A stretch of DNA of 32,591 nt from Nanobdellota archaeon (lineage in GTDB: Archaea > Nanobdellota > Nanobdellia > Woesearchaeales > JAGLGH01). The notes below the pieces were generated by a model. The model was not told the origin of the DNA, searched no databases, and saw only the letters and a program-made list of their open reading frames with translations. This document shows, piece by piece, positions 8,148 to 32,591 of this stretch. The position numbers and the translations under genes are program-made. Where the stretch lies: contig JAYEPB010000100.1 of assembly GCA_034723595.1 (NCBI GenBank), forward strand, positions 1 to 32,591. The letters run 5' to 3'. The stretch's first letter is position 1; each line of letters begins with the position of its first letter.

Positions 8148-8151
8148 TTTA
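8103..8151. repeat. 49-bp direct repeat, copy 1 (contains the real start of the 7053..8147 gene)
   Basis: gatccagttgaactgtatctcaattgatcctcttttttttatcatttta is identical at 8103-8151 and 8263-8311. Confidence 0.9.
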
Positions 8152-8307: not shown

Positions 8308-8311
8308 TTTA
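8263..8311. repeat. 49-bp direct repeat, copy 2
   Basis: Identical to 8103-8151. Confidence 0.9.
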
Positions 8312-8328
8312 TTTCTTTCAGAAATTTT

Positions 8329-8859
8329 TTACCAGGCACTTATCTCTGCGTATTCTCCTGTGCCCTCAAGCCGCAATACTGTTTCTGGGATTGCCACATC
8401 TACACAGAAGAATCCATTCCTGACTTGAAGTAATCCTATATTATAGCCATCTGCAGAAACACCTTTCATGAGGAACATGTTTTCGCCGGTGCAGTCTTTC
8501 CATGCATCATATATTAATGGATATTCTGAGTGGATGTTTTCTATGCGATATAAATCGGAACTAGTGATTTGAGAAAAACTTATGCATTTGTTTTGGGTAT
8601 CAACAAAACATACTTTATCAAACCTTGCAGGAATTTTAAGCGGCAGCTTTTTAACAGAGCCATATTGCGATTCTATCTTTCCCACTTGTGCCTTTATCTC
8701 GTTTGTCAGCTGCGTTATTATGAGATCCTCTGACTGATCGCCAAACATCTTGACCGCCTTATACCCATAAAGCAGGACAGCAGAGAATATTATCAATGCC
8801 AGTATATAGATGAAAACTTGCCCTGTTATTTGCGCTTTTTTGCATTTAATTTTAATCAC
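8329..8859 (-). CDS. Pilin-like protein (class III signal peptide), ~176 aa
   Basis: With the GTG at 8859 the N-terminus is (M)IKIKCKKAQITGQVFIYILALIIFSAVLLYGY. GGAG lies 5 nt upstream, and the start overlaps the giant gene's stop as GTGATTAA (translational coupling). The track start at 8907 is also GTG and would give an atypically long 25-aa leader. Confidence 0.65.
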   Translation of the reverse strand: MIKIKCKKAQITGQVFIYILALIIFSAVLLYGYKAVKMFGDQSEDLIITQLTNEIKAQVGKIESQYGSVKKLPLKIPARFDKVCFVDTQNKCISFSQITSSDLYRIENIHSEYPLIYDAWKDCTGENMFLMKGVSADGYNIGLLQVRNGFFCVDVAIPETVLRLEGTGEYAEISAW

Positions 8860-19800: not shown

Positions 19801-21134
19801 ATTGTTATAGGCTCAGATACAGCTTCATCATGGATTAAGCTATTAGGGGATTTGCAGACATGCCAGTTATTGCCGTCAGACACTGCGCTCTTTCCAAAGC
19901 ATTCAATATCAATTATTCCTCCCTGCGCTCCTTGTGCCATTATCCATTGCCAATAAGTCTCTCCGCTGCCAAAAGGTCCTGCATCCTGGGACTCATATGT
20001 GTCAAAACACACATCTCCTGAATCTACCATGCTGCAGTCATATCCATAATCAGATGTCATTACAAATACCTGAACTTGATCTGTAATATTTTCACCAATT
20101 TCAATAACAGTTGTTTGTGTCTCTCCAATATAAGCGCTGCTTGCTGGAAACATATACCTTTCAATGCTATCTTTATTTAGTTTCCCATTTGATTTATTAC
20201 GAAGATGAAATGTCAATGTAGTGTTTGAACTTATCTTTTCCACGAATTTAAGATTATCAGTTCTATATACTATTGTATGATTTATGTATGTTACTTCTAA
20301 AGACATATCTTCAAATCCCAAACCCTCATCACTTTCTACCTCTGTCATGCCTTTATATATCTCAAGGGTATATGTCTCTTCTGGCTCTGCTGTAAATATT
20401 CCTGTATTGACATAATGACCTGTGCATTGGTCATTCGTATCAATATGGAACATGTAAAGATCACCGTCTTCTGCAACAGTAGCCCCTGCGCTATTTGTTA
20501 TCTTAGCATACAATTCTGTATTATAAAGATAACACCCTTTAAGAATAAATCTCCATGATACTTGTTGGGTTTCCGGTACTTCAAAATCGACTGATTCATG
20601 CTGGATTGCTGTGCCTTCATAATGAAAGTTTACTTTTTTTGATGTAGGGGTCTTATGAATCTCAGGAATGTCTTCTTCATCTATTGTTACTATCACTGAC
20701 CATTCATCTACAAGGATTCCTGAATCATCTCCGCAGCATTCCCCCTCCCCATTGTCAGCATCAGCATTCCAGTCAGAGGCACCACAATCAACATCAGTGC
20801 AAAACTCTTCAATGCTATCATAATCCGAATAGTAAGCATATGTACTTGCATAATCACCATGGGTCCAGAATGTTGTAAGATATATCTTTTCATCATACTG
20901 GCATGGTCTGTCTTCCATTGTGCATTCTGTTGGACAATCTGGAGTATCCTTTCCAGTCTCATCTATGGGGCAGTCTTTCACTAGTGCTCCGCAGCTTGTA
21001 TTTCCATATGCGCAGTCATTTGGATGGATAGAGATTGGCGCATAAACAGAACTGCTTATTAAAATAAGGATTAATAATAAGAACAGAAACAATGATTGCT
21101 TCTTATATGTTATAATGCATACTTTATTTTTCAT
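16803..21134 (-). CDS. Giant (~1443 aa) secreted cysteine-rich protein
   Basis: The ATG at 21134 gives MKNKVCIITYKKQSLFLFLLLILILISSSVYA/PIS, a Sec-type signal peptide, with GAGGA upstream. The track start at 21185 is GTG. CCG(D/E) acidic motifs are present (GECCGDDSG, LCCGEADDGEEYYNDPDGNGGCW). A 247-aa segment near the C-terminus (about 17163-17903) holds ~44 Cys and includes CIPDCLGKQCGDDLCGGTCGAC. No C-terminal TM helix is present. Confidence 0.8.
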   Translation of the reverse strand: MKNKVCIITYKKQSLFLFLLLILILISSSVYAPISIHPNDCAYGNTSCGALVKDCPIDETGKDTPDCPTECTMEDRPCQYDEKIYLTTFWTHGDYASTYAYYSDYDSIEEFCTDVDCGASDWNADADNGEGECCGDDSGILVDEWSVIVTIDEEDIPEIHKTPTSKKVNFHYEGTAIQHESVDFEVPETQQVSWRFILKGCYLYNTELYAKITNSAGATVAEDGDLYMFHIDTNDQCTGHYVNTGIFTAEPEETYTLEIYKGMTEVESDEGLGFEDMSLEVTYINHTIVYRTDNLKFVEKISSNTTLTFHLRNKSNGKLNKDSIERYMFPASSAYIGETQTTVIEIGENITDQVQVFVMTSDYGYDCSMVDSGDVCFDTYESQDAGPFGSGETYWQWIMAQGAQGGIIDIECFGKSAVSDGNNWHVCKSPNSLIHDEAVSEPITIPQDNLIDFTETRLNIAEHHFLCYDDGIRGRIAECTGEDNPHSTISAIYSPGKGTRLETGESIQTGGVTYYCTTYSELQTDLDNIDDDRDPTGESCNEAKSPAGEPLIWTGSLCCGEADDGEEYYNDPDGNGGCWKSQTIRKGTYVTEDGAQIAEVINYNGEFLGCAIAENARYSGKGYLLELKDLHNDTQLIKDKERCTIVTGALGSNAYCSYWGEWKEITETNLSASISPISGSSSCCPVDECWDGTNCVANQISDSTLDTFYGYRCYDGEWVEVELKEAWDKEEVGFCQRADQCLVTMAGSSGSNDNPDKFYTDTDKPICVADGDSFLDRYCEDGEWTSRTKQIAQAMINMATEKSIKKYTLYCDDYDKTLPEYKNILPENCNRDGYQVPCINNVCILSYEDNVIIGTSYNVPIDSENLMSDPIANLCKDAKVSEEDAPSGKFVSCDNRKGWYNHDIESIIFNKDSLITVSLPNNNWLNFFSPLLKGVMDAMLDWIIGWGPKTMLYGEVSAIPVDFINNMQNFDKIYITHAGGKHLIAAYGKAIDYTIYSGSANTCPTNFIALTYDGFETIDICQYVEKYNEIYQTNPGETIACNKTGNNYYIFSRYEIGEEIWQDLTSKLRINASAIETCSNECTAFGSKQCGTGMEYKTCGLYDYDSCMEWSPYFALVCNDYCENNISYHSGYCSGGDCAYSEVQCESGCFNDACKICEDTCPYYGAKECIDDTHYQICMDYNDDGCLEFGESIEISCPDYCLDFNCYKQGSCSLGECSYAQTISCGCDKICNEADCDYDPDCSCTDDNGCCCVGCVGYSTELNEKCSSGDYDNDCICIPDCLGKQCGDDLCGGTCGACASKYYECNGQGECEFIYDECYVLCDSESDVQCAADEDRVINVGIGEGCNPDITSTNNPFEERINLDADTYFELMFKVTLSKSGDITDYYESLEILGATDDVTIGNRDSQIKCSYLKEYTEYDDWGEQSYYYDSENYLSSCALCCK

Positions 21135-21230
21135 AAGATAATTCCTCTTTTTAGTATCCTTGTGTGAAATCCTCTGATATCTCACAAGATATTATAATGT
21201 ATTGCTATACTTGAATATTCATCAAACTGG

Positions 21231-21246
21231 TATTTAAACCTTTCTA
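21231..21246 (-). promoter_or_regulatory. BRE/TATA-like box (AGAAAGG-TTTAAATA) upstream of the second giant gene
   Basis: The reverse complement of 21231-21247 is atagaaaggtttaaata, the same motif class as the other boxes. It implies a ~70-nt leader for ATG 21134, or ~23 nt for GTG 21185. Confidence 0.35.
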
Positions 21247-21353
21247 TAATCTTACCTCCATTCATCGAGTATATCTTATATAATCAAAAACTAAAAACAT
21301 ATGTTTAAATATTTAATAAAAATCTATTCTAACTTGAGCTTTTTACTAAGAAA

Positions 21354-22250
21354 ATGAAAAGAGTAGATATCAAGACAGGATTCTTATGCAATAACAATTG
21401 TAGGTTCTGCATCCAGGCTGACAATAAACTTAAAGGCAATAGGAGTTTTGAAGATATAAAAGAGGATTTGATTGGCTCAAAAGAAAGATGCGAAGGAGTA
21501 GTCTTTACAGGCGGAGAAGTCACAATAAGGAAAGACTTCTTTGATCTTGTCAAATTAGCCAAAGAATTGGGCTATAAGACAATACAGATACAGACAAACG
21601 GAAGGATGTTTGCATCATTGGATTTCTGTAAAAAAACAATTGCTGCTGGCGCAACAGAGTTCAGCCCTGCCTTGCATGGCTATTGCAAAGAACAGCACGA
21701 TTATCTGACTCGTTCCTCTGGCAGTTTCAATCAGACTGTCAAGGGCATCAAAAACCTTAAATCCTTGGACGCTTATGTCCTGACTAACACAGTTGTAGTC
21801 AAGCCAAATTACACAAATCTGCCTCAGATTGCCAGATTGCTAGTTAAACTTAATGCAGACCAGTTTCAGTTCGCATTTGTCCATCCTATGGGGAATGCAT
21901 GGAAAAATTTTAATAACATTGTTCCCCGTATTTCCTTGGCAGCACCCTATATGCATAAAGGCCTGCAGATAGGTGTTGATGCAGGAAAAAGAGTTATGGC
22001 AGAAGCAATGCCCTACTGCCTTATGCAGGGTTATGAGGATTATGTTGCTGAAATAGTGATTCCTGAGACAGAGATAAGGGGGAAGAAATATCAGAATACT
22101 GACCATTTTGATAAACAGAGGAAAGAACAAGGCAAAGCAAAATTCCCTCAATGCAAAAAATGCAAATATGAGGATATATGCGAAGGGCCATGGAGAGAGT
22201 ATCCTGAGAAGCAGGGACACACAGAATTTCAGCCTATTGATGATATTTAA
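21354..22250 (+). CDS. Radical SAM enzyme (COG0535-like) with a C-terminal CxxCx5C motif
   Basis: CNNNCRFC is a CxxxCxxC motif at residues 12-19. GGEVTIRKDF is the SAM-binding GGE motif and IQTNG follows. The C-terminus reads FPQCKKCKYEDICEGPWREY. It is paralogous to the C-terminal half of the next gene. Confidence 0.85.
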   Translation: MKRVDIKTGFLCNNNCRFCIQADNKLKGNRSFEDIKEDLIGSKERCEGVVFTGGEVTIRKDFFDLVKLAKELGYKTIQIQTNGRMFASLDFCKKTIAAGATEFSPALHGYCKEQHDYLTRSSGSFNQTVKGIKNLKSLDAYVLTNTVVVKPNYTNLPQIARLLVKLNADQFQFAFVHPMGNAWKNFNNIVPRISLAAPYMHKGLQIGVDAGKRVMAEAMPYCLMQGYEDYVAEIVIPETEIRGKKYQNTDHFDKQRKEQGKAKFPQCKKCKYEDICEGPWREYPEKQGHTEFQPIDDI

Positions 22251-22382
22251 TAAGAGCCAATGCATCTTATTTTTTGAGGATTATTGCTGTTTAGAATGGA
22301 ATACTTATGGATCCAGGGAAAAATGCGATAAGATTAAGGATACATTTTTATTAAAGCCATATATTTCATATAAGGAAGGGGG

Positions 22383-22402
22383 TAAAAAGTATACTTTTTA
22401 TA
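22383..22402 (+). promoter_or_regulatory. 18-bp perfect palindrome TAAAAAGTATACTTTTTA overlapping a TTTTTATA box ~25 nt upstream of ATG 22421
   Basis: I read the palindrome directly (22383-22400). The TATA-like tttttata lies at 22395-22402, which gives leaderless geometry for the GT-radical SAM gene. Confidence 0.4.
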
Positions 22403-22420
22403 GAATTTCAATGTACAAAA

Positions 22421-24496
22421 ATGAAAATAATGCACATATCACCAATAAGGTGGCATCCTTGTTTTACTGAATTAATAAAAGAGCAGAGTAATGGACATAC
22501 CATACTTTTTGTTAAACTTGATTTGATTGAAAAAGATAAGTCTTATGAGGTTGTCAATGATGCAAGAGATGACTGCATACGAATAAAGAACATTAAAAAA
22601 TGCTGTGATCAGAATTATGATTCTAAGCTCAATATCATATTCAATAACTTGTTGAAGGAACACAAGCCAGATATAATTCATCTGCATGTTTTTTCCGGAA
22701 TAAGCCTGCTCCCGATATTGAATGCAGCCTCAAGCTTGGATATAAAAAAGATATTAACACTTCATGACCATTCTTTATTATGCATTAAAGGTCTATGTTA
22801 TAATCAGGATAACAAATGTGAATTAACTACATTAGCACAGTGTGATTGCCAGGAATGTCTGGAGCACTCATCTAAGAGCAATATCTCATTAAATTCCTAT
22901 AATCAGCGTAGGAAGATGTGGATAGAATCTATCATCAACCAATGTGACAAGATAATCTGTCCATCCAATTATCAGAAAAAGCAGATGACCACTTTATTTG
23001 GCAAAGATGCTAAAATCATATATTTATATTATGGTATTAAGTTGCCTAAATTCAAACAAGAGCAGAAAAAAATTAGCATGCCAGTTTTTGGATATTTAGG
23101 CACAACATCATGGATAAAGGGAATTAGATTAATAGAAGAAGCTATTAAAAAATTAAAAGGTTATGATTTTCGCATATTAATGGGATTCAGCAAATTGAGC
23201 AATCAAGATAACGCATTTTTTAAGAAAATTGACAAAAACAATGAAATTATAATTAAACAGGATATATCCAGAAATGCTTTATATCATCAGTTCTTCAGCC
23301 AAATAGATTACCTGATAATACCTTCAATCTGGAATGAGACTGGACCAATGACTTTATTGGAGTCATTTTATTATAAGGTACCTGTAATTCTATCTAATAA
23401 TGAAAGCATGGTGGAAAAGATAAGAGGGAATAAAAGTTCTATGGTCTTTAATAGCATTGATGAATTAGTTCTCATCATGAAACAGATTATCAATGGAGAT
23501 ATAAAAAAAGAAGAAAAAGATTTGTTTGCTGCCAAGAATATTGCCCAGTATTCTGAAGAGATAATTGAAATATATAAAGATGTGATGGCAGCTAAACAAA
23601 AAGGTTTATTTCTAAAACTTGGATATGAATGCAACAATAATTGCATTTTCTGTGTTACAGGCGATAATCACCCTAGAAAATTCATAGATCTTGAAATAAT
23701 TAAAGAAACTTTAAGAAAAAACAGGGGTAAATTCAATTCATTGGTCTTAACTGGAGGAGAACCAACAATCAGGAAGGATTTTTTTAAGATTTTAGACCTT
23801 GCTTATAGGCTGGGATATAAGATATTATTACAGACAAATGCAAGAATTTTCTCATATGAAACATTTTGTGATAACCTTAAAGGCTATAATTTAAAATTCA
23901 GCATTAATGTGAATTCTCCTGATTTCAGGATTCATGATGAAACTACTGGAGTAAAAGGCAGTTTTGCCCAGACTATCAAAGGCATTCAAAATCTACAAAA
24001 ACATGATTTTGAGATATTGGGCAAAATAATGCTGACACGCATCAATTATAGGCATGTTCTGGAAACTGTGAAATTTATAGCGCAGCTTGGGATTAGGGAT
24101 ATATGGCTTGTTTTTTTGACACCTTACGGCTCAGCTAAGATTAATTTTAATGATGTTATACCTGGATATTCGCAAGTCATGCCTTTTGTAAATCAAGCGC
24201 TTTTATGGGCAAAAGAGAACAGCAATATAAAGATGGGCATTGAAGGATTCCCTTATTGCTGCATAAATCAGGAATTCAGGCAATTAGTGACAGAAGAGAA
24301 CTTCAATAAAGATTCCCTGCAGGGCATATATGCTGGAGATGACAATTATGAGTATAATTGCAAATATGAAAGAGTTTTCACCCAAAAACAGAAGTTTGAC
24401 AACTGCAATGAATGCAGATATAATAATAAATGCGAAGGAATATATAAAGAGTATGTTAAGCATAATGGTAAAGGGGAATTTAAACCTATAAAATGA
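22421..24496 (+). CDS. Fusion protein: GT4-type (GT-B) glycosyltransferase (N-terminal ~390 aa) + radical SAM domain (C-terminal ~300 aa)
   Basis: The GT part contains MKIMHISP..., HKPDIIHLH, LTLHDHSLLC with a Cys-rich insert (CDCQEC), and PSIWNETGPMTLLESFYYKVPVI (the E-x7-E region). The radical SAM part contains GYECNNNCIFC, LTGGEPTIRKDFF, LLQTNA and a C-terminal FDNCNECRYNNKCEGIYKEY. Confidence 0.8.
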   Translation: MKIMHISPIRWHPCFTELIKEQSNGHTILFVKLDLIEKDKSYEVVNDARDDCIRIKNIKKCCDQNYDSKLNIIFNNLLKEHKPDIIHLHVFSGISLLPILNAASSLDIKKILTLHDHSLLCIKGLCYNQDNKCELTTLAQCDCQECLEHSSKSNISLNSYNQRRKMWIESIINQCDKIICPSNYQKKQMTTLFGKDAKIIYLYYGIKLPKFKQEQKKISMPVFGYLGTTSWIKGIRLIEEAIKKLKGYDFRILMGFSKLSNQDNAFFKKIDKNNEIIIKQDISRNALYHQFFSQIDYLIIPSIWNETGPMTLLESFYYKVPVILSNNESMVEKIRGNKSSMVFNSIDELVLIMKQIINGDIKKEEKDLFAAKNIAQYSEEIIEIYKDVMAAKQKGLFLKLGYECNNNCIFCVTGDNHPRKFIDLEIIKETLRKNRGKFNSLVLTGGEPTIRKDFFKILDLAYRLGYKILLQTNARIFSYETFCDNLKGYNLKFSINVNSPDFRIHDETTGVKGSFAQTIKGIQNLQKHDFEILGKIMLTRINYRHVLETVKFIAQLGIRDIWLVFLTPYGSAKINFNDVIPGYSQVMPFVNQALLWAKENSNIKMGIEGFPYCCINQEFRQLVTEENFNKDSLQGIYAGDDNYEYNCKYERVFTQKQKFDNCNECRYNNKCEGIYKEYVKHNGKGEFKPIK

Positions 24497-25383
24497 AAAT
24501 TTTAGTGCCTCTATCTAATCTTGAAGAAGTTAAGCCTTTATGTACTGCTGGCGCTGATCAGTTTTATTGCGGATTAGTCCATAAGAATGAATCTCTTAAT
24601 GACAGGCCAAATATAGGGAATTTTAATTTTACTGATATTGATGAACTCTCAAAAGCAGTAGATATTGTCCATGGCTTGGGAAAAGATATGTTTTTAGTGA
24701 TTAATAACATCACTCCTGATTTAGAGTCTGCTCTTAGTCAGGCACGAATTGCTGAGAAGCTGGGGATAAAAGGGGTTATTGTATCTAATCCTTTAGTTCT
24801 GAAGAGGATAAGGGAAGAGAAATTAAAATTAGATGTATGCGCAAGTTGTTTAACTGGAGCGTTAAACAGCCAGGCTATAAATTTCTTTCAGAAGTTAGGC
24901 GCAAAGCTTATTCATTTACCCAGGCATGTAGGAATAAAAGATTTAGAGATGATTTCTAATAATCTCGAGGGGATTGAACTATCTGTTTTTGGCATGAATG
25001 GCATGTGCATAAATATTGAAGCATACTGCTCATTGCATTACCTGAAAAATGAGTTCTTTATACCTTGCAATAATTTCAAAACAATTGAATTGGCTGGTGA
25101 AGGGTCATTGTCAAAGACTGAGATGAATAAAAAGATTAATTCTCCTAAGATTAGCTGTGGAATCTGCGCATTTAAAAGATTTAAAAAAATAGGGATAAGT
25201 TCAATTAAAATTGAGGGCAGAGGCATATCTACTAATAAAAAGATAATAAATGTGTCTATTGTAAAGGAAGCTTTAGACTTAGCCAATGAAAACATTAATG
25301 ATGCAGACTTTCACTTGCTCTGCAAAAGATTATTTAAGAAACATTTTAATGAAGATTGTAAAGTGGAATATTGTTACTTTTAA
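24493..25383 (+). CDS. Peptidase U32-family protein, UbiU-like Cys pattern
   Basis: MKILVPLSNLEEVKPLCTAGADQFYCGL...NFNFTDIDELSKAVDIVHGLGKDMFLVINN...GVIVSNP...ELSVFGMNGMCINIEAYCSLH...IKIEGRG follows the U32 family layout. Cys lie at about 172, 179, 192 and 222/225. The ATGA start overlaps the upstream stop. Confidence 0.7.
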   Translation: MKILVPLSNLEEVKPLCTAGADQFYCGLVHKNESLNDRPNIGNFNFTDIDELSKAVDIVHGLGKDMFLVINNITPDLESALSQARIAEKLGIKGVIVSNPLVLKRIREEKLKLDVCASCLTGALNSQAINFFQKLGAKLIHLPRHVGIKDLEMISNNLEGIELSVFGMNGMCINIEAYCSLHYLKNEFFIPCNNFKTIELAGEGSLSKTEMNKKINSPKISCGICAFKRFKKIGISSIKIEGRGISTNKKIINVSIVKEALDLANENINDADFHLLCKRLFKKHFNEDCKVEYCYF

Positions 25384-25385
25384 AG

Positions 25386-26117
25386 ATGGAAAAAGCAATT
25401 CATTTTAGGGCAATCCATAATTTGGATAGAATTAAAATCAAGGATATAGGCAGATTTTACTTTGGCGAAGAGTTTTGTGATCGGCTATTGCCTAGCAATC
25501 AGGAGATGAAAGAAGTAGTCAATAAAGCAAGAGAGTCAAATAAGGACATTTCCTTGTTGATACCCCCCTTGTCTGAGACAGGCCTGAAAAAGGCCATATC
25601 ATTGATTAATTTATTAGATTCTGGCAGTGAGGTTATTGTAAATGATTATGGGGCATTAAATCTTGTTGCTAATGAATTCGAGAATCCTATCATTATAGGG
25701 AGAGTAATGGGGAGAAACATACTTCAGGCTTTGAATATATTTAATAATGACAAAGATTTAATTAAGGAAAATATCCTTCTATTTGGTTCGAGAATTAAAG
25801 GCATCGACGTGGATTACTTTAATGCCAATAAAATTAATCCTATCTTGGCTAAGATTTTAGACTTTTCATTTTATAGGGGCCCCTTTTTTTGGACAGTGAC
25901 AAGGAGATGCGCATTTAATAGCAATTCCCAAAGTCTGCATAAATTTGCAGCCTGCAAAAAAGAATGTTTAAAAAACAAGGCAATAATTAAGAATACGCTA
26001 GTTAATAAAAGGTTTTTATTAGAAGGTAATAAGATAATTAATCTTGAAATGACTGCCAGAAAAAAGATAAACTATGGGTTATTTAAACGAGTAGTCTATA
26101 AGCTAAAAGAGAGTTAA
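25386..26117 (+). CDS. U32-related protein, UbiV-like Cys pattern
   Basis: MEKAIHF...RFYFGEEFCDRLLPS...ISLLIPPLSE...VIVNDYGALNLV. Cys lie at about 31, 175, 190 and 194 (C..., then C-x14-C-x3-C). The track start at 25371 is non-ATG; the ATG at 25386 lies 2 nt after the upstream stop. Confidence 0.6.
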   Translation: MEKAIHFRAIHNLDRIKIKDIGRFYFGEEFCDRLLPSNQEMKEVVNKARESNKDISLLIPPLSETGLKKAISLINLLDSGSEVIVNDYGALNLVANEFENPIIIGRVMGRNILQALNIFNNDKDLIKENILLFGSRIKGIDVDYFNANKINPILAKILDFSFYRGPFFWTVTRRCAFNSNSQSLHKFAACKKECLKNKAIIKNTLVNKRFLLEGNKIINLEMTARKKINYGLFKRVVYKLKES

Positions 26118-26118
26118 G

Positions 26119-27027
26119 ATGAATTTACCTAACGAAATAATCATAGAATTGACAAGAAAATGCAATCTGGATTGTGATTTTTGTTTTAACAAGCAAGGAA
26201 CTTATAATTCATGCGGGATTTCGCAAAAAGAGATTTTTAAAGTATTGCAGGAAGTTTCAGATTCTGGAATCAAGGCAGTGAGATTTACAGGTGGAGAGCC
26301 GTTCTTAAGAAAAGACTTATGCGAAATACTAAGAAAAGCCAAATCATTGGGCATGTATGTGATTCTCAACACTAATTCGTTTCTAATAGATGAAGGAAAT
26401 AAAGATTGTTTTAATTATGTTGATTTGGTTCTTTTTTCCTTGCATAATACTGCGCGATTTGAAAAAGTAAAAGAAAAGATGGATATGCTGAAAGATTATA
26501 ATTTGAAAATTATGCTTGGCACTATCCTTATACAACTAAATATAGATCCTCTTGAGGATTATTATGATTTCATCTCTAAATTAGATAGCAAAAACTTTGT
26601 AGAATGGTTCTTATTAAGACCAATACCAAATAAGTCCAATAAGAAGCCAATAACTAAAAAAGACATCAGAATCATCTATGAAAAAGTTGTGCAATATAAT
26701 AAGGAATATAATATGGATATTAAAATTGCAAATGCCTTGCCTTTCTGTGCAATAGATGAAGATTTACAATCTATCTGCAAAGGAGGGCATTTTGATTCTG
26801 GTTATACCAGGCTGGTTATTGATGCTGCTGGGAATTATAAAGCAGATTATTTTTCAAACATTTTAGGAAATATCAGTTCAAGCAATATTCTTGATGTATG
26901 GAATTCCAGAGAGATTAAGGATATTCGTGAATTTAAGAAGATTGATGAGAAATGCAAGACCTGCTGTCATCTCACAAAATGCAGAGGAGGCTTGATTGGA
27001 AAAGAATATTTGCGCAAGTTTGCCTGA
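26119..27027 (+). CDS. Radical SAM enzyme with a C-terminal SPASM/twitch-type auxiliary cluster domain
   Basis: CNLDCDFC is the CxxxCxxC motif and FTGGEPFLRKDL follows. The C-terminal region reads PFCAIDE...CKGG...VIDAAGNYKADYFSNILGNISSSNILDVWNS...CKTCCHLTKCRGG. The start lies 1 nt after the upstream stop. Confidence 0.8.
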   Translation: MNLPNEIIIELTRKCNLDCDFCFNKQGTYNSCGISQKEIFKVLQEVSDSGIKAVRFTGGEPFLRKDLCEILRKAKSLGMYVILNTNSFLIDEGNKDCFNYVDLVLFSLHNTARFEKVKEKMDMLKDYNLKIMLGTILIQLNIDPLEDYYDFISKLDSKNFVEWFLLRPIPNKSNKKPITKKDIRIIYEKVVQYNKEYNMDIKIANALPFCAIDEDLQSICKGGHFDSGYTRLVIDAAGNYKADYFSNILGNISSSNILDVWNSREIKDIREFKKIDEKCKTCCHLTKCRGGLIGKEYLRKFA

Positions 27028-27040
27028 TGAAATTTGAAAA

Positions 27041-28282
27041 TCAAATATTATTGAATTTTGCATATACTTTAAAATTTAATCCATTGGCAATTTTATATGC
27101 TGTGCTGCCAATATCATAATGGTTATTGATTGAAAGAATTTGTATTGCTTTTCTTATGTCTTCTCTATATTTCTTATTTAAGAATAAATCCGTGTTTTTG
27201 ATGAATTCTTTCGTCTTATCATCTAATTCTGCTTTTTCTCGTGTTTTTTGATTATTTAATATTGCCAGCAATTTTTTGTCATGGTCTTTGCAAATAATGT
27301 TTTTATTTAATTTGAGCTTATGATAATTCTCAACTTTTTGCACTGCCTCAACAATATCAATCTTCCCAAGCGGCTGGTTATTTATCAAGTCTGTGGATTT
27401 GCTGACATAGTTTGTTCTTACTAAATTCTCTTTTGGAACAACATTATATCCGCCGCCATGTTCTGATGCAATAATGGGGATGCCCATATGATTTGCTTCT
27501 ACAAGGACTCTTGGACATGATTCTAGATTTGCTGTTGAAGGGAATAACATAACATCTATATTTTTAAGGAATTCCCATATCCTTTGGTGAAGAATTGGTT
27601 TGCCTTCATTTATATGGATATAATTTCTTTGATCAATTTTATGCTTATTCAACAATGAGATTATTCTATCGCGAGAATATTCTGCTTGCGGCTTGCCGCA
27701 TGCGAGAAATTGTATATTTTTCTCTTTTAATGATTTAGATGATTCTATAAATATTTGCAAAGCCTGATCAAAGTTTTTTTCTTTCGATAGATGCCCTAAC
27801 CAGCCCAATACAATCTTGTTCTCTTGTTTATGTTTTTCGATTTTTGGGTGATTTTGAAAAGAATGCATGACTGGAAAACATACAGAGGTATTTTTTTCAT
27901 TTAAATGAGAGAAAAGTTTTATATAAAACTGTCTGGTAAATTCTGAAGGGATTATTAATTTGTCATTTTCATTCGAATATTTTGAACAAAGCTTTTCCTG
28001 CATCAAATATCCCCCCCAAAGAGTTGTGTGGATATCTCTTACTATGGTAAAATTTTTGTTGTATTTTTCTCTCAAATAATGGAAAATCCAGTCATAAGGT
28101 CCAGAATTGGTCAATAGTACATCTTCATCATTAAAACTTTTAATTTTTCTTAATATATCAAGAAAATGCATGCCCTTGGCATTAGGTTGTTCTGATAAAA
28201 AGCATGAATTATAGTAATAACATAAATTAGCCCCAAATTCGTTATTATTTTTATAATTGCAATAGATTATCATTCTTAGCAT
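27041..28282 (-). CDS. GT-B fold glycosyltransferase (GT4/GT1-like)
   Basis: GWLGHLSKEKNFDQALQIF... and MLFPSTANLESCPRVLVEANHMGIPIIASEHGG match the E-x7-E-type C-terminal domain motif. The N-terminal domain is divergent. Confidence 0.65.
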   Translation of the reverse strand: MLRMIIYCNYKNNNEFGANLCYYYNSCFLSEQPNAKGMHFLDILRKIKSFNDEDVLLTNSGPYDWIFHYLREKYNKNFTIVRDIHTTLWGGYLMQEKLCSKYSNENDKLIIPSEFTRQFYIKLFSHLNEKNTSVCFPVMHSFQNHPKIEKHKQENKIVLGWLGHLSKEKNFDQALQIFIESSKSLKEKNIQFLACGKPQAEYSRDRIISLLNKHKIDQRNYIHINEGKPILHQRIWEFLKNIDVMLFPSTANLESCPRVLVEANHMGIPIIASEHGGGYNVVPKENLVRTNYVSKSTDLINNQPLGKIDIVEAVQKVENYHKLKLNKNIICKDHDKKLLAILNNQKTREKAELDDKTKEFIKNTDLFLNKKYREDIRKAIQILSINNHYDIGSTAYKIANGLNFKVYAKFNNI

Positions 28283-28354
28283 AAGTTATATATATGTAAC
28301 TAAGAATACTAAGAAACATAGTTAATTTAAAAAGTTTTGGGGGTTTTTAGAGAT

Positions 28355-29503
28355 ATGAAGATTTGCATAGTTACTTTTGAATATCCTCCGCAAATTGGAG
28401 GGATATCTCATGCTGTGAATAGGATAGCTAAGGGGCTTTTAAAAAAAGGGGTTGAAATGCATATTGTTGCAGTCACTCCAAATAATAGAACATCTTTCTC
28501 TGAAAATTCTGTTTCTGAATCTGGAAATGCTATTGTTCATCGATTTGGTCCATCTAGCGGAGATCTTAAGCATATCTCTGGAAAAGAAGCTGAGGATCTT
28601 TCCAATTACCTTATAGAACTTGATAAAGAACATGATTTTGACTTGTTTCATGCATTTACAATTTTCCCTTGCGGCTATATCACTGTGAAAATTGCAAAAA
28701 AATTAGGCAAACCAGTGATAGTAAGCGGCAGAGGAGAAGATGGAGCAATTGACCTCAATAGCCATAATCTTGAAGAAAAAAGATGGGCTGTCAAAAATGC
28801 GAATTATCTAACTTTTGTCAGCACTGAAATGATGAATCATGTTGATTGCTTTGAAAGATGTAAATATAAATCAAAAGTCATACTCAATAGTTTAGATCCC
28901 TCTGAGTTCTATTTTTTGCCCCATTTTAAAAAACCTGAATTAAAAGGTTTTGTAATAGGCATCGCCACCACAATAAGAGAGATTAAGGGTTTTGAATATC
29001 TCTTAGAGGCTTTTGCAAGATTTTCTAAGAAATATGAATCTACTTTGATTTTAGCAGGAGATTTTAGGACAATTGACCTTAAAAAAAAATACTTATTATT
29101 GATTCATAAATTAGGAATTAGAAATAAAGTTGTAATTACTGGACTTATAAAGCATAAATTCATTCTTAACTATATTGATTTAATGGATGTTTATGTGCTG
29201 CCTTCTGTTTTTTCTGAAGGATGCCCTAATTCTTTGCTTGAAGCAATGTATTTAGGAAAGCCTGTTATTGGATCTGATATTGGAGCAATCCCTGAGATAA
29301 TAGAGCATAAGAAAAATGGTCTTCTATTTGCTTTAAAAAATGTGGCTGGGATTTATGAAAATCTGATCTTACTTAAAGAGGATAAAGAACTTTGCAAAGA
29401 AATCAAAAGTGAAGTAAAGAGGACAATTATTCAAAAATTCAAGTATGATAAAGAACCAAAAAGATGGTTTAAAATATATAATGAAATTATTAAATTACCT
29501 TAG
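28355..29503 (+). CDS. GT4-family glycosyltransferase
   Basis: MKICIVTFEYPPQIGGISHAVNRIAKGL... and LPSVFSEGCPNSLLEAMYLGKPVIGSDIGAIPEIIEHKKNGLLF are classic GT4 motifs. The track start at 28337 is TTG; the ATG at 28355 has GGGGGT ~10 nt upstream. Confidence 0.85.
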   Translation: MKICIVTFEYPPQIGGISHAVNRIAKGLLKKGVEMHIVAVTPNNRTSFSENSVSESGNAIVHRFGPSSGDLKHISGKEAEDLSNYLIELDKEHDFDLFHAFTIFPCGYITVKIAKKLGKPVIVSGRGEDGAIDLNSHNLEEKRWAVKNANYLTFVSTEMMNHVDCFERCKYKSKVILNSLDPSEFYFLPHFKKPELKGFVIGIATTIREIKGFEYLLEAFARFSKKYESTLILAGDFRTIDLKKKYLLLIHKLGIRNKVVITGLIKHKFILNYIDLMDVYVLPSVFSEGCPNSLLEAMYLGKPVIGSDIGAIPEIIEHKKNGLLFALKNVAGIYENLILLKEDKELCKEIKSEVKRTIIQKFKYDKEPKRWFKIYNEIIKLP

Positions 29504-29519
29504 GCTATTGATATATTTT

Positions 29520-29628
29520 ATACCACCAGTCTGTGACTGGTGTAATCAAGTGGTATTAAATATGCTCAATAGGAAGTGACCCGAGGCGAAGCCGAGCATG
29601 CCACCAGTGTTTCACTGGTGGTGGTCAC
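29520..29628 (+). other. GC-rich structured intergenic element with twin CCACCAGT/ACTGGTGG hairpins
   Basis: Hairpin 1 is caccagtc-tgt-gactggtg (29524-29542, 8 bp). Hairpin 2 is ccaccagtg-ttt-cactggtgg (29601-29621, 9 bp). An outer gtgacc/ggtcac pairing links 29576-29581 with 29623-29628. An alternative ataccac/gtggtat pairing links 29520-29526 with 29550-29556. The mini-hairpin sequence GCGAAGC is embedded near 29586. Confidence 0.45.
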
Positions 29629-29669
29629 GGACTTTTGACAAATTATATAATCAGAAAAAGATGCAGAAG

Positions 29670-32591
29670 ATGGGAAAAAGAATTATGTTTTATTGCCATT
29701 ATAGTGTAGGTCTTGGCCATTTTGTCAGGACATTTGCATTAGCCAAAGGCATAAAAAGAGTAAATCCAAATTCTGAGATTTTAATTGTTTCAGGCGGCGC
29801 ACCAGTTCCCATTAAATTGCCAGATGGAATACAAGGGATTAAAATTCTTAATTTGCCGCCACTTAGAGAATCACAAAACAACAGGGAATTAGAGCCATTG
29901 TCTGATGAATCAGCTGATGAAGTAAAAAAATCAAGGATAATTCAAATAATTAAGGCATATAGATTATTTAAACCGGATTTTTTATTTGTCGACCATTTCC
30001 CATTTGGAAGAATTGAACTAAAATATGAAATAACTGCTCTGCTTGATATTGCGATGAATTCTAATAAAAAACCAAAAATAATTTCCAGCATAAGAGACAT
30101 GGCTTTTGTGGAAAAAGATCATGAAGAAGAAACTGGACAGATGATAGAATACTTTTTGAACAAATACTTTGATTATTTATTAGTTCATTCTGACTATAGA
30201 GTAACTTGCATTGAAGATGAATTTGAGATATTAAAACAAGTTAAGATTCCTATAATCTATACTGGTTATGTCTGTTCAATGTCTGAAGAAGAGATTAAAG
30301 AAAATGTTAAAGAAAAGGTTAATTATACTGATGCAGATTATCCTTACGCAAAAAATGAAAAATTAATATTGGTTAGCGCAGGTGGAGGAAGGAGTTGCTT
30401 TGAGCTTATCAAAAAAACAATTGAGGCAAAAGAAAAATTAGACAAAAATAAAGTGAAATCAAGATTCTTGATACTGGCTGGCCCTTTCTTAAGCGAAGAG
30501 GAATTTTTATCATTAAAAGAACTTGCAAAAAAACATAGAGGTATAAGTCTAAAGCGATTTATACCTGATTTCATTGATGTTTTAAAACAAGCCGATGTTT
30601 CAATAAGCAATGTTGGATATAATACTACTGTTGAACTCCTATTGACTAAGACTAAATCCTTATTAATCCCCCATATCAAGAATTCTGTGATAAACAAGGA
30701 ACAGCTTGAACGAGCTAAAAAAATAAAAAACATAATCTCAGCAGAGATTCTTGATCCAAGAGAACTGAATCCAATGAAGATTGCGGATTGTTTGAACAAA
30801 TTAATGAGTTCTAAGCAAAATCAGGGTGATAGCAAACAATTTGAAGTTGATCTGAATGGCGCTGAATTTGCAGGAGAATTCATAAGCAATCTTAATAAGC
30901 CTTGCAGGGTATTTTTCAGAGATGATGATGTTCATGAAGTGACAGATAAGTTTATTGATTTAAATAATCTATTTTCAGATAAAAACATTCCAATACATTA
31001 TTCAGTCATACCTTGCACAATGTCTAAAAATTTGATTGAATACTTAAATAATATTAAGAAAAAACAACATAATATTGAGATAGGTCAGCATGGCTGGAGC
31101 CATAAAAAACATGGAGATTCTGTAAGCTATGAATTTGGCGATAAAAGGAGCTATTCTGAGCAATATGAAGACATTTCTAAAGGCAGGAATAAAATAGAGT
31201 CTAATTTTGAAATAAATCCAAATCTTGTTTTTACTCCGCCTCACAATAGATTAAATTCAGATACAATCAAGGTGCTTGAAAAACTTGATTTCAGGATAAT
31301 CTCTTCATCATGCTATTCTGATGAATACAATAAAATAAGACCTCCTCAAAAAATAAGGGATATTCCTATTTGTCTGGATTTATTTATCAAAATAGATGAC
31401 AAGTGGATATTAAAGGATAAAAGAGAACTAATAAAAGAGTTTTTTATTAAAAAGCAGAATGGAATAGTTGGCATAATGATTCATCATAAGTTTTTCAGTG
31501 ATAAAAAAGAATTTGAATTATTGAATGAGTTTATTGATCTTATGATTAGAGAAAAAGTACAATTTAAATCATTTGCGCAAATAAATAACTATTTAAAACA
31601 ATCAAAAAAAACAATTGCCTATCTCAGATCTAACTATCTTCCTGCTTCTGAAAACTTTATATATCAGGAAATTAAGAATATAAATCAATCTGATTCATGT
31701 TATGCAGCTGTAATTTCAGTTGTTAGGGAAAATGAAAATATATTCTCTGGAGTAGAGGTCATTGAGCAGCCACGATTCAAATCTTTACACACTGCCAATT
31801 ACCCATTCATAAAAAATTCACAGCTTAAGCTTTACAGCCAATTCATGAACTTTTGCGCAGATGAAATAATGTCAAGGGATGTTTCTTTGCTTCATGCCCA
31901 GTTTGGTGATGATGGGCTGTTCTTTTTGCCATTAAAAAGAAAAACTGGGCTGCCTTTAGTTGTATCTTTTAGGGGTTTTGATTTATACAGGCTGCCAAAT
32001 CAGTTCCCAAGGGTATATAATCCTTTATTCAAAGAAGCTGATTTGTTCTTGGTTAGGTCTAATTCCATGAAAAAAGATTTGATTAATTTGGGATGCCATG
32101 CTGAAAAAGTAAATGTGCATCATTCATCAATTGATTTAGATGAGATTGATGCAATCCTAAATAAAATACAAAATAAAGAAATAAGAGTCAATACAGAAAC
32201 AATAAAAGAGGAAAAAAGAGTTAATGAGAAAATTAAACTTATTTTCGCAGGAAGGTTTGTTGAAAAGAAGGGAATCTTTGATATTATTAAAGCGTTTTCA
32301 GGATTAAAGCAAGAGGGCAAGGATATTGAACTGAAGTTGATTGGCGACGGTCCCCTAAAAAAACAGGCAGAAAAAATGGTTTATGATTTGGAAATCAAAG
32401 ATATAACTTTTATGACCTTCTTAAGTCATGAAGATCTGATAAAAGAGATTAAAAAATCAGATATATTTGTTCTTCCAGGCAAAACTGCAAAAGACTGCAA
32501 TAAAGAAGGCATTCCTGTTATATTAATGGAAGCAATGGCTTGCGGCTTGCCTGTTGTTTCAACATTCCATTCAGGAATCCCTGAGTTAGTT
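29670..32591 (+). CDS. Partial CDS (continues past the right edge): tri-domain fusion of a MurG/COG4671-like GT-B glycosyltransferase, a polysaccharide deacetylase (CE4/DUF2334-like) and a GT4 glycosyltransferase
   Basis: Absent from the ORF track (no stop in the window). Hand translation in the frame of ATG 29670 is open to 32591 (~974 codons). It begins MGKRIMFYCHYSVGLGHFVRTFALAKG, and the first domain continues with ...LILVSAGGGRS...ILAGPFL...ISNVGYNTTVELL. From about 30900 it reads CRVFFRDDDV...IGQHGWSHKKHGD...FTPPHNRL. From about 31610 it reads ...VVSFRGFDLY...LIFAGRFVEKKG...FVLPGKTAKDCNKEGIPVILMEAMACGLPVVSTFHSGIPELV. In-frame ATGs also exist at 29598, 29661 and 29685. Confidence 0.75.
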   Translation, partial: MGKRIMFYCHYSVGLGHFVRTFALAKGIKRVNPNSEILIVSGGAPVPIKLPDGIQGIKILNLPPLRESQNNRELEPLSDESADEVKKSRIIQIIKAYRLFKPDFLFVDHFPFGRIELKYEITALLDIAMNSNKKPKIISSIRDMAFVEKDHEEETGQMIEYFLNKYFDYLLVHSDYRVTCIEDEFEILKQVKIPIIYTGYVCSMSEEEIKENVKEKVNYTDADYPYAKNEKLILVSAGGGRSCFELIKKTIEAKEKLDKNKVKSRFLILAGPFLSEEEFLSLKELAKKHRGISLKRFIPDFIDVLKQADVSISNVGYNTTVELLLTKTKSLLIPHIKNSVINKEQLERAKKIKNIISAEILDPRELNPMKIADCLNKLMSSKQNQGDSKQFEVDLNGAEFAGEFISNLNKPCRVFFRDDDVHEVTDKFIDLNNLFSDKNIPIHYSVIPCTMSKNLIEYLNNIKKKQHNIEIGQHGWSHKKHGDSVSYEFGDKRSYSEQYEDISKGRNKIESNFEINPNLVFTPPHNRLNSDTIKVLEKLDFRIISSSCYSDEYNKIRPPQKIRDIPICLDLFIKIDDKWILKDKRELIKEFFIKKQNGIVGIMIHHKFFSDKKEFELLNEFIDLMIREKVQFKSFAQINNYLKQSKKTIAYLRSNYLPASENFIYQEIKNINQSDSCYAAVISVVRENENIFSGVEVIEQPRFKSLHTANYPFIKNSQLKLYSQFMNFCADEIMSRDVSLLHAQFGDDGLFFLPLKRKTGLPLVVSFRGFDLYRLPNQFPRVYNPLFKEADLFLVRSNSMKKDLINLGCHAEKVNVHHSSIDLDEIDAILNKIQNKEIRVNTETIKEEKRVNEKIKLIFAGRFVEKKGIFDIIKAFSGLKQEGKDIELKLIGDGPLKKQAEKMVYDLEIKDITFMTFLSHEDLIKEIKKSDIFVLPGKTAKDCNKEGIPVILMEAMACGLPVVSTFHSGIPELV

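What the first reader, a model, noticed from the sequence alone, without database searches (positions are those of the whole stretch)
21354..32591. Whole cluster: three radical SAM domains, U32 hydroxylase-like pair, five GT domains and a deacetylase adjacent to the giant surface-protein locus
Taken together the block looks like a pathway for an unusual, anaerobically tailored glycan or glycoconjugate. Radical chemistry plus O2-independent hydroxylation plus de-N-acetylation are all represented. It is divergently transcribed from the giant Cys-rich surface protein gene across a 168-220 bp promoter region, depending on which start is used for the giant gene. Plausible products are a decoration of the adhesins or pilins, or a capsule- or pseudomurein-like polymer. 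No flippase, oligosaccharyltransferase (AglB) or nucleotide-sugar synthesis gene is in the window, so the pathway is incomplete here.
Basis: inference. Interest (0 to 1): 0.7.

Follow-up and report, generated by a model that had tools for sequence, protein, structure and literature searches.

The report
Sugar-adding radical-SAM peptide-maturation gene cluster
This archaeal gene block is a real, conserved cluster that joins sugar-transferring enzymes to oxygen-independent radical and hydroxylating enzymes, and in related genomes the same genes belong to a system that matures small His-x-Ser repeat peptides, a combination that has not been described before.

Summary
That is three radical SAM (rSAM) domains, a U32 pair, five glycosyltransferase (GT) domains and a deacetylase. 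The unannotated partner gene (g4) is shown here to be a divergent, UbiV-like U32 protein.

The genes are not a chance juxtaposition. The same families recur together in DPANN archaea, Omnitrophota and other phyla, repeatedly fused to one another (GT4-rSAM, GT28-rSAM, rSAM-GT2-deacetylase).

The main correction concerns the target. The three rSAM domains belong to families that, in relatives, sit inside complete His-Xaa-Ser (HXS) peptide-maturation operons:
- g1 is 73% and g5 is 62% identical to genes flanking an HxsA-like/HxsB/HxsD operon in a Woesearchaeote.
- g2-type GT4-rSAM proteins are the only HxsC-like gene in three HXS operons.

My best reading is a glycosylating, hydroxylating variant of an HXS system, not a free glycan pathway or an adhesin decoration. 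No HxsA, HxsB or HxsD gene lies in the window, so this stays inferred (about 0.45).

Two further points:
- The window carries a 1.5-kb deletion that removed a PMT-type GT-C transferase, which is intact in sister strains.
- In a sister contig the cluster continues past the window end into a sugar aminotransferase-rSAM fusion.

The parts
21186..21353 (.). Divergent intergenic region between the giant Cys-rich protein gene (16803-21185, minus strand) and g1. A+T-rich, with TATA-like boxes (TTTAAA at 21233, TATATAAT at 21277, TTTAAATA at 21304).
   Evidence: Sequence read. The arrangement is conserved only in sister contigs L111-L113.
21354..22250 (+). g1: stand-alone radical SAM protein of the HxsC-like clade (CNNNCRFC; C-terminal C..CxxCx5C auxiliary motif).
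   Evidence: Pfam. NCBIfam best hits HxsC4 164 bits and HxsC 98 bits, both sub-threshold. 73% identical to the L043 ortholog that faces an A24-like/HxsD/HxsB/HxsA-like operon. 2751 homologs at E<=1e-10.
22243..22407 (+). Pseudogene remnant: the last 55 codons of a PMT/PMT_2-type GT-C glycosyltransferase. About 1532 bp are deleted relative to sister strains.
   Evidence: tblastn 94.5% over 55 aa. L111 and L004 overlap by 77 nt at 100% and together carry the intact gene. The N-terminal half scores PMT_2 38.4 and PMT 29.5 bits. The junction shows GAGATAT microhomology.
22421..23575 (+). g2, N-terminal half: GT4 (GT-B) glycosyltransferase domain with an intact EX7E motif and four invariant Cys (C121, C133, C141, C143).
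23576..24496 (+). g2, C-terminal half: HxsC-like radical SAM domain (CNNNCIFC; C613; C662xxC665x5C671).
   Evidence: g2-type proteins are the only HxsC-like gene in the HXS operons of L006, L020 and L114, and they give the same sub-threshold HxsC scores.
24493..25383 (+). g3: U32 family protein, UbiU-like, with a conserved CX6C..C..CX2C cysteine set. Its start overlaps the g2 stop.
   Evidence: Pfam 99.3 bits. 29% identity to E. coli UbiU over 191 aa. Cys conservation.
25386..26117 (+). g4: divergent U32-like TIM-barrel protein, UbiV-like (C31...C175x14C190x3C194). The conserved partner of g3.
   Evidence: g3 lies directly beside g4 in 13 metagenome loci.
26119..27027 (+). g5: small radical SAM/SPASM protein.
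   Evidence: Pfam. 62% identical to the L043 ortholog that lies beside the HxsA-like precursor gene. Fused to GT2 domains in L006 and L108, and in L086 to GT2 plus a deacetylase.
27041..28282 (-). g6: GT-B glycosyltransferase (Glycos_transf_1), the only cluster gene on the minus strand.
   Evidence: Conserved only in the sister contig L004.
28337..29503 (+). g7: GT4 glycosyltransferase.
   Evidence: The best NCBIfam hit is BshA, at 100 bits against a cut-off of 274.
29523..29629 (.). 107-nt insert with two hairpins (CCACCAGT-N5-ACTGGTG), flanked by imperfect 20-nt direct repeats. Not part of the pathway.
   Evidence: No Rfam match.
29661..32591 (+). g8 (cut by the window end): a triple fusion. 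GT28-like domain (about 29661-30860), DUF2334/NodB-type deacetylase (about 30912-31517) and GT4 domain (about 31785-32591).
   Evidence: The full length is 1039 aa in L004, where it is followed by a DegT-rSAM/SPASM fusion.

Best explanation
The block is the enzyme side of a glycosylating variant of a His-Xaa-Ser (HXS)-type radical SAM maturation system.

Shown:
- g1 and the C-terminal half of g2 are HxsC-clade rSAM domains.
- g5 is an rSAM/SPASM protein whose ortholog sits beside an HxsA-like precursor gene.
- g3 and g4 form a conserved UbiU/UbiV-like U32 pair, each with a four-Cys motif.
- These families, together with GT4, GT28 and GT2 domains and the NodB-type deacetylase, recur together and are repeatedly fused to one another across phyla.

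Inferred mechanism:
1. A small membrane-anchored precursor carries a charged leader, one hydrophobic helix and C-terminal HxS repeats. Its gene is encoded elsewhere in this genome.
2. The rSAM enzymes modify it in the cytoplasm.
3. The U32 pair performs an O2-independent hydroxylation. I speculate that the target is the His imidazole or another sp2 carbon.
4. The GT domains add sugars. GT4 fused to the HxsC-like domain (g2) would couple peptide recognition to glycosyl transfer, probably onto the repeat Ser residues.
5. The deacetylase, and the downstream DegT-rSAM gene, convert HexNAc or hydroxyl groups to amino groups.
6. In sister strains a PMT-type GT-C would add lipid-linked sugar outside the membrane. 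In this strain that gene is deleted.

A defence or cell-surface role is possible by analogy with HXS. It is not shown here.
For: - Domain calls.
- g4 is U32-like. The UbiV motif is taken from PMC6747719.
- Co-conservation and fusions:
  - L006 (Omnitrophota) carries HxsD, HxsB, an HxS precursor, g2, an A24-like gene, PMT_2, g3, g4 and g5-GT2-GT2.
  - L086 carries rSAM/SPASM-GT2-deacetylase, GT28-GT4-rSAM, g2, g3, g4 and GT28-rSAM.
  - L108 carries two HxS precursors, the U32 pair and rSAM-GT2-deacetylase.
  - L003, L105 and L106 show related gene sets.
- Orthology to HXS loci: g1 is 73% and g5 is 62% identical to L043 genes that flank HxsA-like, HxsB (467 bits against a cut-off of 370), HxsD (52.7 against 50) and an A24-like gene.
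- g2-type proteins are the sole HxsC-like gene in L006, L020 and L114.
- The proteins in the HxsC slot give the same sub-threshold scores as window g1 and g2.
- HxsB, HxsC and HxsD mature HxsA experimentally (PMC13128918).
Against: - No HxsA-like ORF, Hxs leader, HxsB or HxsD was found in the window, in L004 or in L086.
- Only 3-4 of about 15 distinct g2 loci, and 3 of 9 long g4 loci, show HXS core genes within 10 kb.
- Five GT domains, a NodB deacetylase and an NDP-sugar-type aminotransferase look like oligosaccharide assembly, which does not need a peptide.
- The fold neighbours of g1 are mixed: lipid, sugar-nucleoside, peptide and nucleotide enzymes.
- No biochemical data exist for any member.
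- The proposed target of the U32 pair is pure inference.
Confidence: 0.45

Rival explanations
1. One reading: a stand-alone pathway for an anaerobically tailored glycan or glycolipid. GT4 and GT28 enzymes build a lipid-linked oligosaccharide. The rSAM domains fused to GTs, together with the deacetylase and the DegT-rSAM fusion, diversify the sugars after transfer (epimerisation, oxidation plus transamination, de-N-acetylation). A GT-C exports the product to an acceptor. This would be an Arn-like logic using radical chemistry.
For: - Five GT domains and a NodB/DUF2334 deacetylase.
- A DegT domain of the LegC/PseC/ArnB type fused to rSAM/SPASM.
- A PMT_2 GT-C in sister strains and in L006 and L106.
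- Bac_transf and Wzy_C in L006; an NAD-dependent epimerase in L108.
- The closest solved relative of g1 by sequence is BlsE, a sugar-acid decarboxylase.
- Most g2 and g4 loci show no HXS core genes.
Against: - g1, g2C and g5 belong to clades that occupy HXS operon positions in relatives.
- HxsC is a protein-modifying enzyme.
- The window holds no flippase or priming transferase.
- The BlsE similarity is limited to the rSAM core, and the fold neighbours are mixed.
Confidence: 0.33
2. The cluster decorates the adjacent giant Cys-rich surface proteins or the type IV pilin-like proteins encoded to its left.
For: - Divergent arrangement with the giant gene, kept in sister contigs L111-L113.
- Seven or eight archaeal class III-signal pilin-like genes lie in the window.
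- g2 homologs lie next to type IV filament genes in L002, L114 and L105/L008.
- PMT-type GT-C enzymes glycosylate proteins (established knowledge).
Against: - The adjacency is conserved only among near-identical strains.
- More distant g1 orthologs sit beside Cdc6/PolD.
- No giant proteins or pilins lie near the A24-like genes of other loci.
- The GT-C that would perform external protein glycosylation is deleted in this very strain.
Confidence: 0.12
3. The genes are unrelated neighbours. For example, the U32 pair could be an RNA or quinone hydroxylase and the rSAM genes viperin-like defence genes that merely sit among GT genes.
For: - Weak pVip core matches in PADLOC, 36-77 bits.
- The characterised U32 enzymes act on quinones and RNA.
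Against: - Repeated co-occurrence and multiple independent domain fusions across phyla.
- The U32 pair is embedded in rSAM/GT/DegT contexts in all 9 long g4-anchored loci.
- UbiU scores 79 bits against a cut-off of 440; the viperin model scores 57 against 180.
- No UbiT/SCP2 gene is present.
Confidence: 0.03

Closest known systems
HXS (His-Xaa-Ser) system: HxsA/HxsB/HxsC/HxsD. TIGR03976-03979; shown to be an antiphage system in 2026 (PMC13128918).
   Same: - g1 and g2C have HxsC and HxsC4 as their best family matches.
- In relatives, orthologs and homologs of g1, g2 and g5 sit in operons with bona fide HxsB, with HxsD or HxsD-like proteins (above cut-off only in L043) and with HxS-repeat precursors.
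- The auxiliary Cys motif is present.
   Different: - The window has no HxsA, HxsB or HxsD.
- HxsC scores are about 100 bits against a cut-off of 268.
- The precursors in relatives are short membrane-anchored peptides with no peptidoglycan-binding domain.
- HxsC is fused to GT4.
- Extra modules are present (U32 pair, GTs, deacetylase, DegT, GT-C, A24-like protein).
- The hosts are DPANN, Omnitrophota and Myxococcota, whereas the published survey puts 99.7% of systems in Pseudomonadota.
UbiU-UbiV, the O2-independent, prephenate-dependent U32 hydroxylase heterodimer (PMC6747719, PMC10990095).
   Same: - Two adjacent U32-fold genes.
- g3 shows a UbiU-like CX6C...C...C pattern.
- g4 shows a UbiV-like pattern, with the first Cys far upstream and then CX14CX3C.
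- The pairing is conserved in 13 loci.
   Different: - UbiU scores 79 bits against a cut-off of 440, and g4 is invisible to Pfam.
- There is no UbiT/SCP2 gene and no quinone pathway context.
- The pair is embedded in rSAM/GT clusters.
- The substrate and the oxygen donor are unknown.
Arn pathway: ArnB (DegT), ArnC (GT2), ArnD (NodB-type deformylase) and ArnT (PMT_2-type GT-C).
   Same: The same enzyme classes co-occur: a DegT aminotransferase, a GT fused to a NodB-type deacetylase, and a PMT_2 GT-C (in sister strains and relatives).
   Different: - There is no ArnA.
- The oxidation step would be radical SAM-based.
- The window has GT-B rather than GT2 enzymes.
- The GT-C is deleted here.
- All scores are far below the Arn equivalog cut-offs (ArnB 165 against 631).
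Radical SAM sugar-tailoring enzymes of aminoglycoside and nucleoside antibiotic pathways (BtrN with BtrR; BlsE; DesII). The role of BtrN with BtrR is recalled from my own knowledge.
   Same: - The rSAM/SPASM-DegT fusion mirrors the pairing of an rSAM dehydrogenase with an aminotransferase.
- BlsE is the best PDB sequence match for g1 (E 3e-13).
   Different: - Similarity is limited to the rSAM core.
- The BlsE family score is 58 against a cut-off of 400.
- No cyclitol or nucleoside genes are present.

Membership tests
HXS (His-Xaa-Ser) system | An HxsC radical SAM maturase (TIGR03977 or NF038332, above cut-off). | tested here: not met
   g1 scores 98 (HxsC) and 164 (HxsC4). g2 scores 101 and 116. 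The cut-offs are 268 and 500. These are nevertheless the top hits, and proteins in the HxsC slot of HXS-complete loci score the same.
HXS (His-Xaa-Ser) system | An HxsB radical SAM/SPASM maturase (TIGR03978) in the locus. | tested here: not met
   None in the window, L004 or L086. Present above cut-off in relatives L006, L114 and L043.
HXS (His-Xaa-Ser) system | An HxsD small partner protein (TIGR03976 / PF27806). | tested here: not met
   jackhmmer found no window ORF. Present in about 20 related loci.
HXS (His-Xaa-Ser) system | An HxsA substrate with His-Xaa-Ser repeats. | tested here: not met
   The six-frame repeat scan and the leader HMM found none in the window. 18 related loci have one. 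The rest of the genome could not be searched.
U32 O2-independent hydroxylases (UbiU/UbiV type) | A U32 TIM-barrel domain in both partners. | tested here: met
   g3 scores 99.3 bits on PF01136. g4 is supported by hhalign at 96.5% and by Foldseek, where 5D88 is the top hit.
U32 O2-independent hydroxylases (UbiU/UbiV type) | Four conserved Cys able to bind a [4Fe-4S] cluster in each subunit. | tested here: met
   g4 has C31, C175, C190 and C194 invariant or nearly so across 57 sequences. In g3, CX6C is conserved in all homologs and the further C and CX2C in most. Metal binding itself was not tested.
U32 O2-independent hydroxylases (UbiU/UbiV type) | Membership of the UbiU/UbiV equivalogs, with the UbiT accessory and a quinone pathway. 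| tested here: not met
   UbiU scores 79 bits against a cut-off of 440. No SCP2/UbiT gene or quinone gene is in the window.
U32 O2-independent hydroxylases (UbiU/UbiV type) | Heterodimer formation and prephenate-dependent hydroxylation. | not testable with these tools
   Only the conserved adjacency is known: 13 loci.
Radical SAM superfamily | A CX3CX2C motif and the Radical_SAM domain. | tested here: met
   g1 has CNNNCRFC, g2 has CNNNCIFC and g5 has CNLDCDFC. Pfam scores are 67-76 bits.
GT4 / GT-B glycosyltransferases | Glycos_transf_1 / Glyco_transf_4 domains with the EX7E motif. | tested here: met
   E306..E314 is invariant in the g2 family. EX7E can be read in g6, g7 and g8c.
Arn-like lipid-linked aminosugar transfer pathway | A PMT_2/ArnT-type GT-C present and intact. 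| tested here: not met
   Only a 55-codon remnant remains in the window. The gene is intact in sister contigs (PMT_2 38.4 bits).
Prokaryotic viperin (pVip) defence | A match to the viperin equivalog above cut-off. | tested here: not met
   viperin_w_prok scores 57 bits against a cut-off of 180. PADLOC pVip gives core matches only.

The most novel reading that the evidence does not exclude
A previously undescribed, cross-domain class of 'glyco-HXS' systems. In these, HxS-repeat peptides are matured by HxsC-type rSAM domains physically fused to glycosyltransferases, and are further oxidised by a new UbiU/UbiV-like U32 subfamily. The g4 family has at least 1324 representative clusters. This would be the first U32 hydroxylase acting on a peptide or glycan substrate, and the first HXS-type system in archaea.
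Probability: 0.35. Interest if true: 0.85.

Novelty: new variant of a known kind. Interest (0 to 1): 0.68.

Why it matters
- HXS systems were characterised only in 2026 and were reported as almost exclusively proteobacterial. Here the same core appears in DPANN archaea, Omnitrophota, CPR and Myxococcota, wired to glycosyltransferases, a deacetylase, sugar aminotransferases and a GT-C. This points to a glycosylated, radical-modified peptide product of unknown chemistry.
- The work defines a large uncharacterised UbiV-like U32 family that is always paired with a UbiU-like partner and lies outside quinone and RNA contexts. This widens the possible substrate range of O2-independent hydroxylases.
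- The repeated GT-rSAM fusions give concrete, clonable targets for enzymology.
- Because the hosts are ultra-small episymbionts, the product may matter for host contact or virus defence.

Tried and rejected
- **Viperin or other defence assignment.** Only weak rSAM-core matches were found.
- **UbiUVT quinone pathway, or a TrhP/RlhA RNA hydroxylase.** Scores are far below the cut-offs and the gene context is wrong.
- **Inferring the substrate from structure.** The g1 AF2 model (pLDDT 92) matched lipid, sugar, peptide and nucleotide rSAM enzymes about equally, so it was uninformative.
- **Pilin precursors beside the A24-like genes of related loci.** None were found.
- **An early conclusion that the adhesin adjacency is absent from the closest relative.** This was wrong: L004 simply starts inside the GT-C gene, and L111-L113 show the adjacency.
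- **The 708-aa ORF at 901-3027 as a kinase related to the g1-kinase fusions.** No similarity was found.
- **Rfam match for the hairpin insert.** None.
- **Literature searches** for GT plus rSAM plus U32 clusters, and for archaeal HXS systems, found nothing relevant.
- **One NCBIfam query (L072) was in the wrong frame** and is ignored.
- **Extending the sister contig L004 downstream** was not possible, because the look-up caps had been reached.

Full report
**1.

The window is low-GC (about 30-40%).

| Gene | Coordinates | Strand | Content |
|---|---|---|---|
| g1 | 21354-22250 | + | radical SAM (rSAM) |
| g2 | 22421-24496 | + | GT4 + rSAM fusion, 691 aa |
| g3 | 24493-25383 | + | Peptidase_U32 |
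| g4 | 25386-26117 | + | no Pfam hit |
| g5 | 26119-27027 | + | rSAM/SPASM |
| g6 | 27041-28282 | - | GT-B glycosyltransferase |
| g7 | 28337-29503 | + | GT4 |
| g8 | 29661 to window end | + | GT28-like + DUF2334/NodB deacetylase + GT4 |

g2 through g5 overlap or abut, which suggests translational coupling. The spacer to the divergent giant gene is 168 or 219 bp, depending on the start used. No NCBIfam equivalog cut-off is reached by any of the eight proteins, so none is a standard-pathway ortholog.

**2. The 'U32 pair' is real**

g4 has no database family, but three lines of evidence place it in the U32 fold.
- Its homologs keep four Cys: C31, C175, C190 and C194. The pattern is CXnCX14CX3C. 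UbiV uses CXnCX12CX3C (C39, C180, C193, C197) to bind its [4Fe-4S] cluster (PMC6747719).
- A 57-sequence g4 profile aligns to a U32 profile with 96.5% probability and E 8e-10.
- An AF2 model (pLDDT 94) has the U32 protein Mk0906 (5D88) as its only PDB match at E<=1e-3.

g3 keeps a UbiU-like CX6C...C...CX2C set and is 29% identical to E. coli UbiU. The g4 family is large, with 1324 representative clusters at E<=1e-3. When I anchored a metagenome scan on g4, a g3-like gene lay directly beside it in 13 loci.

**3. The genes are co-conserved and repeatedly fused**

The source is a DPANN archaeon. The closest named genome is 'Nanoarchaeota archaeon RS_10_27' (91% identity), and g1 homologs are labelled Woesearchaeota or Nanoarchaeota. 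Full-length GT4-rSAM proteins recur down to 33% identity, mostly in Omnitrophota.

Gene neighbourhoods:
- Additional rSAM genes occur in 12 of 13 g2-anchored loci of at least 10 kb. Some of these loci are near-duplicates.
- All nine long g4-anchored loci carry rSAM genes, and most also carry GT and/or DegT genes.

The same domain families are fused in different combinations in different loci:
- GT28-GT4-rSAM/SPASM (1520 aa), rSAM/SPASM-GT2-DUF2334 and GT28-rSAM in L086;
- rSAM/SPASM-GT2 and rSAM-GT2-deacetylase in L108;
- g5-GT2-GT2 in L006;
- rSAM-PEP-utilizer-GT2 in L042.

**4. Sister strains define the boundaries and reveal a deletion**

Contigs L111-L113 (g1 95% identical) show giant genes, then g1, then the N-terminal half of a PMT/PMT_2 GT-C (38.4 and 29.5 bits). 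L111's tail overlaps L004's head by 77 nt at 100% identity. L004 continues through the GT-C C-terminus, g2 to g8 (1039 aa) and a DegT-rSAM/SPASM fusion. The aminotransferase half of that fusion is of the LegC/PseC/ArnB sugar-nucleotide type.

The window matches L111 up to position 22246 and matches L004 from position 22242. About 1532 bp are missing, and only the last 55 codons of the GT-C survive, at 22243-22407. The junction lies at a GAGATAT microhomology. A second assembly, L001, shows the same deleted arrangement. Its independence from the window's sample is unknown.

**5. The turn: these are HXS-family radical SAM genes**

The best family matches of g1 and g2C are HxsC4 and HxsC. Following that lead gave the following.
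- L114 (g2 48% identical) reads MshEN, MshEN, g2, HxsD, HxsB, leader-bearing precursor.
- L006 (Omnitrophota) reads HxsD-like, HxsB (376 bits against a cut-off of 370), an HxS precursor ('...HQNHSSHASHGSY'), g2, A24-like, PMT_2-like, g3, g4, g5-GT2-GT2, B12-rSAM.
- L020 reads g2-type, HxsD, HxsB, precursor, g5-like, A24-like.
- In these three loci the g2-type protein is the only HxsC-like gene, so it occupies the HxsC slot.
- In the Woesearchaeote locus L043, the g5 ortholog (62% identity) sits beside an HxsA-like gene, HxsB (467 against 370), HxsD (52.7 against 50) and an A24-like membrane protein. These are transcribed divergently from the g1 ortholog (73% identity).
- L110 repeats g1 with HxsB and a precursor.
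- L108 links two HxS precursors with the U32 pair and rSAM-GT2-deacetylase fusions.

Across all fetched loci, HxS-repeat ORFs occur in 18, HxsB-like genes in 22 and HxsD-like genes in about 20. Proteins in the HxsC slot of these complete operons give the same sub-threshold HxsC scores as window g1 and g2. The low scores are therefore a trait of this clade and do not argue against the role. HxsB, HxsC and HxsD were shown in 2026 to mature HxsA, through N-terminal processing and a +8 Da change. The published survey placed 99.7% of systems in Pseudomonadota (PMC13128918).

**6. What is missing here**

None of HxsA, the Hxs leader, HxsB, HxsD or the A24-like protein is present in the window, L004 or L086. 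Most g2 and g4 loci also lack them within 10 kb.

**7. Interpretation**

Shown:
- The cluster is a coherent module of HxsC-type and SPASM rSAM enzymes, a UbiU/UbiV-like pair, GT-B transferases and a deacetylase.
- In relatives its components are embedded in HXS operons.

Inferred (about 0.45):
- The enzymes act on an HxS-repeat, membrane-anchored peptide encoded elsewhere in the genome.
- The GT domains glycosylate that peptide.
- The U32 pair hydroxylates it without O2.

The number of GT domains, the NodB deacetylase, the sugar-type DegT and the GT-C all fit it well. The two readings may both be partly right, for example a glycan built on the peptide.

Decoration of the neighbouring adhesins or pilins (about 0.12) rests on an adjacency that is conserved only among near-identical strains. 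More distant g1 orthologs lie next to Cdc6/PolD. However, g2 homologs do sit beside type IV filament genes in three other distinct loci.

**8. Novelty**

I found no paper describing GT-fused HxsC proteins, archaeal HXS-type systems or a U32 pair in such clusters. One preprint only notes that GT1 and radical SAM domains co-occur in giant Omnitrophota proteins. I rate this a new variant of a known kind, of clear interest to radical SAM, RiPP and U32 enzymology.

Noticed in passing
window 22243-22407: A 55-codon remnant of a PMT/PMT_2-type GT-C glycosyltransferase. About 1.5 kb is deleted at a GAGATAT microhomology relative to sister contigs L111 and L004, so this strain lacks the external transferase of the cluster.
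   Followed up: yes
window 29523-29629: A 107-nt insert with two hairpins (CCACCAGT-N5-ACTGGTG), flanked by imperfect 20-nt direct repeats and absent from sister contig L004. It looks MITE-like. It has no Rfam match and no other copy in the window or in the fetched loci.
   Followed up: partly
window 4538-8907 and 15447-16760 (minus strand): A run of at least eight genes whose N-termini look like archaeal class III (type IV pilin) signals, for example MKKGQGLSMNVIIIAVLALIVLV. Several have Cys-rich C-termini. They are interleaved with the two giant Cys-rich proteins (2184 and 1460 aa), none of which has a Pfam family.
   Followed up: partly
related loci L006, L020, L029, L043, L047, L108, L110, L114: The HxsA-like precursors share a leader, roughly KK(L/I)xxF(L/V)x(D/E)ExG-x-I-S-K, then one hydrophobic helix, then HxS/HxN repeats ending in Y or W. 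The invariant Gly, together with an A24 (prepilin peptidase)-like membrane protein found in 12 of 80 genome loci, suggests prepilin-peptidase-like leader removal.
   Followed up: partly
L002, L114, L105/L008 (and the window): GT4-rSAM (g2-type) genes lie immediately beside type IV filament components: a T2SSE ATPase, two MshEN-domain proteins, an N_methyl pilin with PilM/PilO/secretin, and archaeal pilins. The association recurs but was not quantified.
   Followed up: no
window 22421-23575 (g2 GT4 domain): Four Cys are invariant in 20 homologs (C121, C133, C141, C143; pattern C-x11-C-x7-C-x-C) within the N-terminal GT-B lobe. This may be a Zn or Fe-S site, which is unusual for GT4 enzymes.
   Followed up: no
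L109, L110 and proteins P0222, P0290: In other Woesearchaeota, the g1 ortholog heads a multi-rSAM operon in conserved synteny with Cdc6 and PolD. Some g1 homologs (74-86% identical) are fused to an APH/fructosamine-type kinase domain.
   Followed up: no
L043:2291-4147 and L042:15369-17396: Further unusual rSAM fusions occur in related loci: rSAM with a branched-chain polyamine synthase C-terminal domain (BpsA_C), and rSAM with a flavodoxin-like FMN reductase.
   Followed up: no
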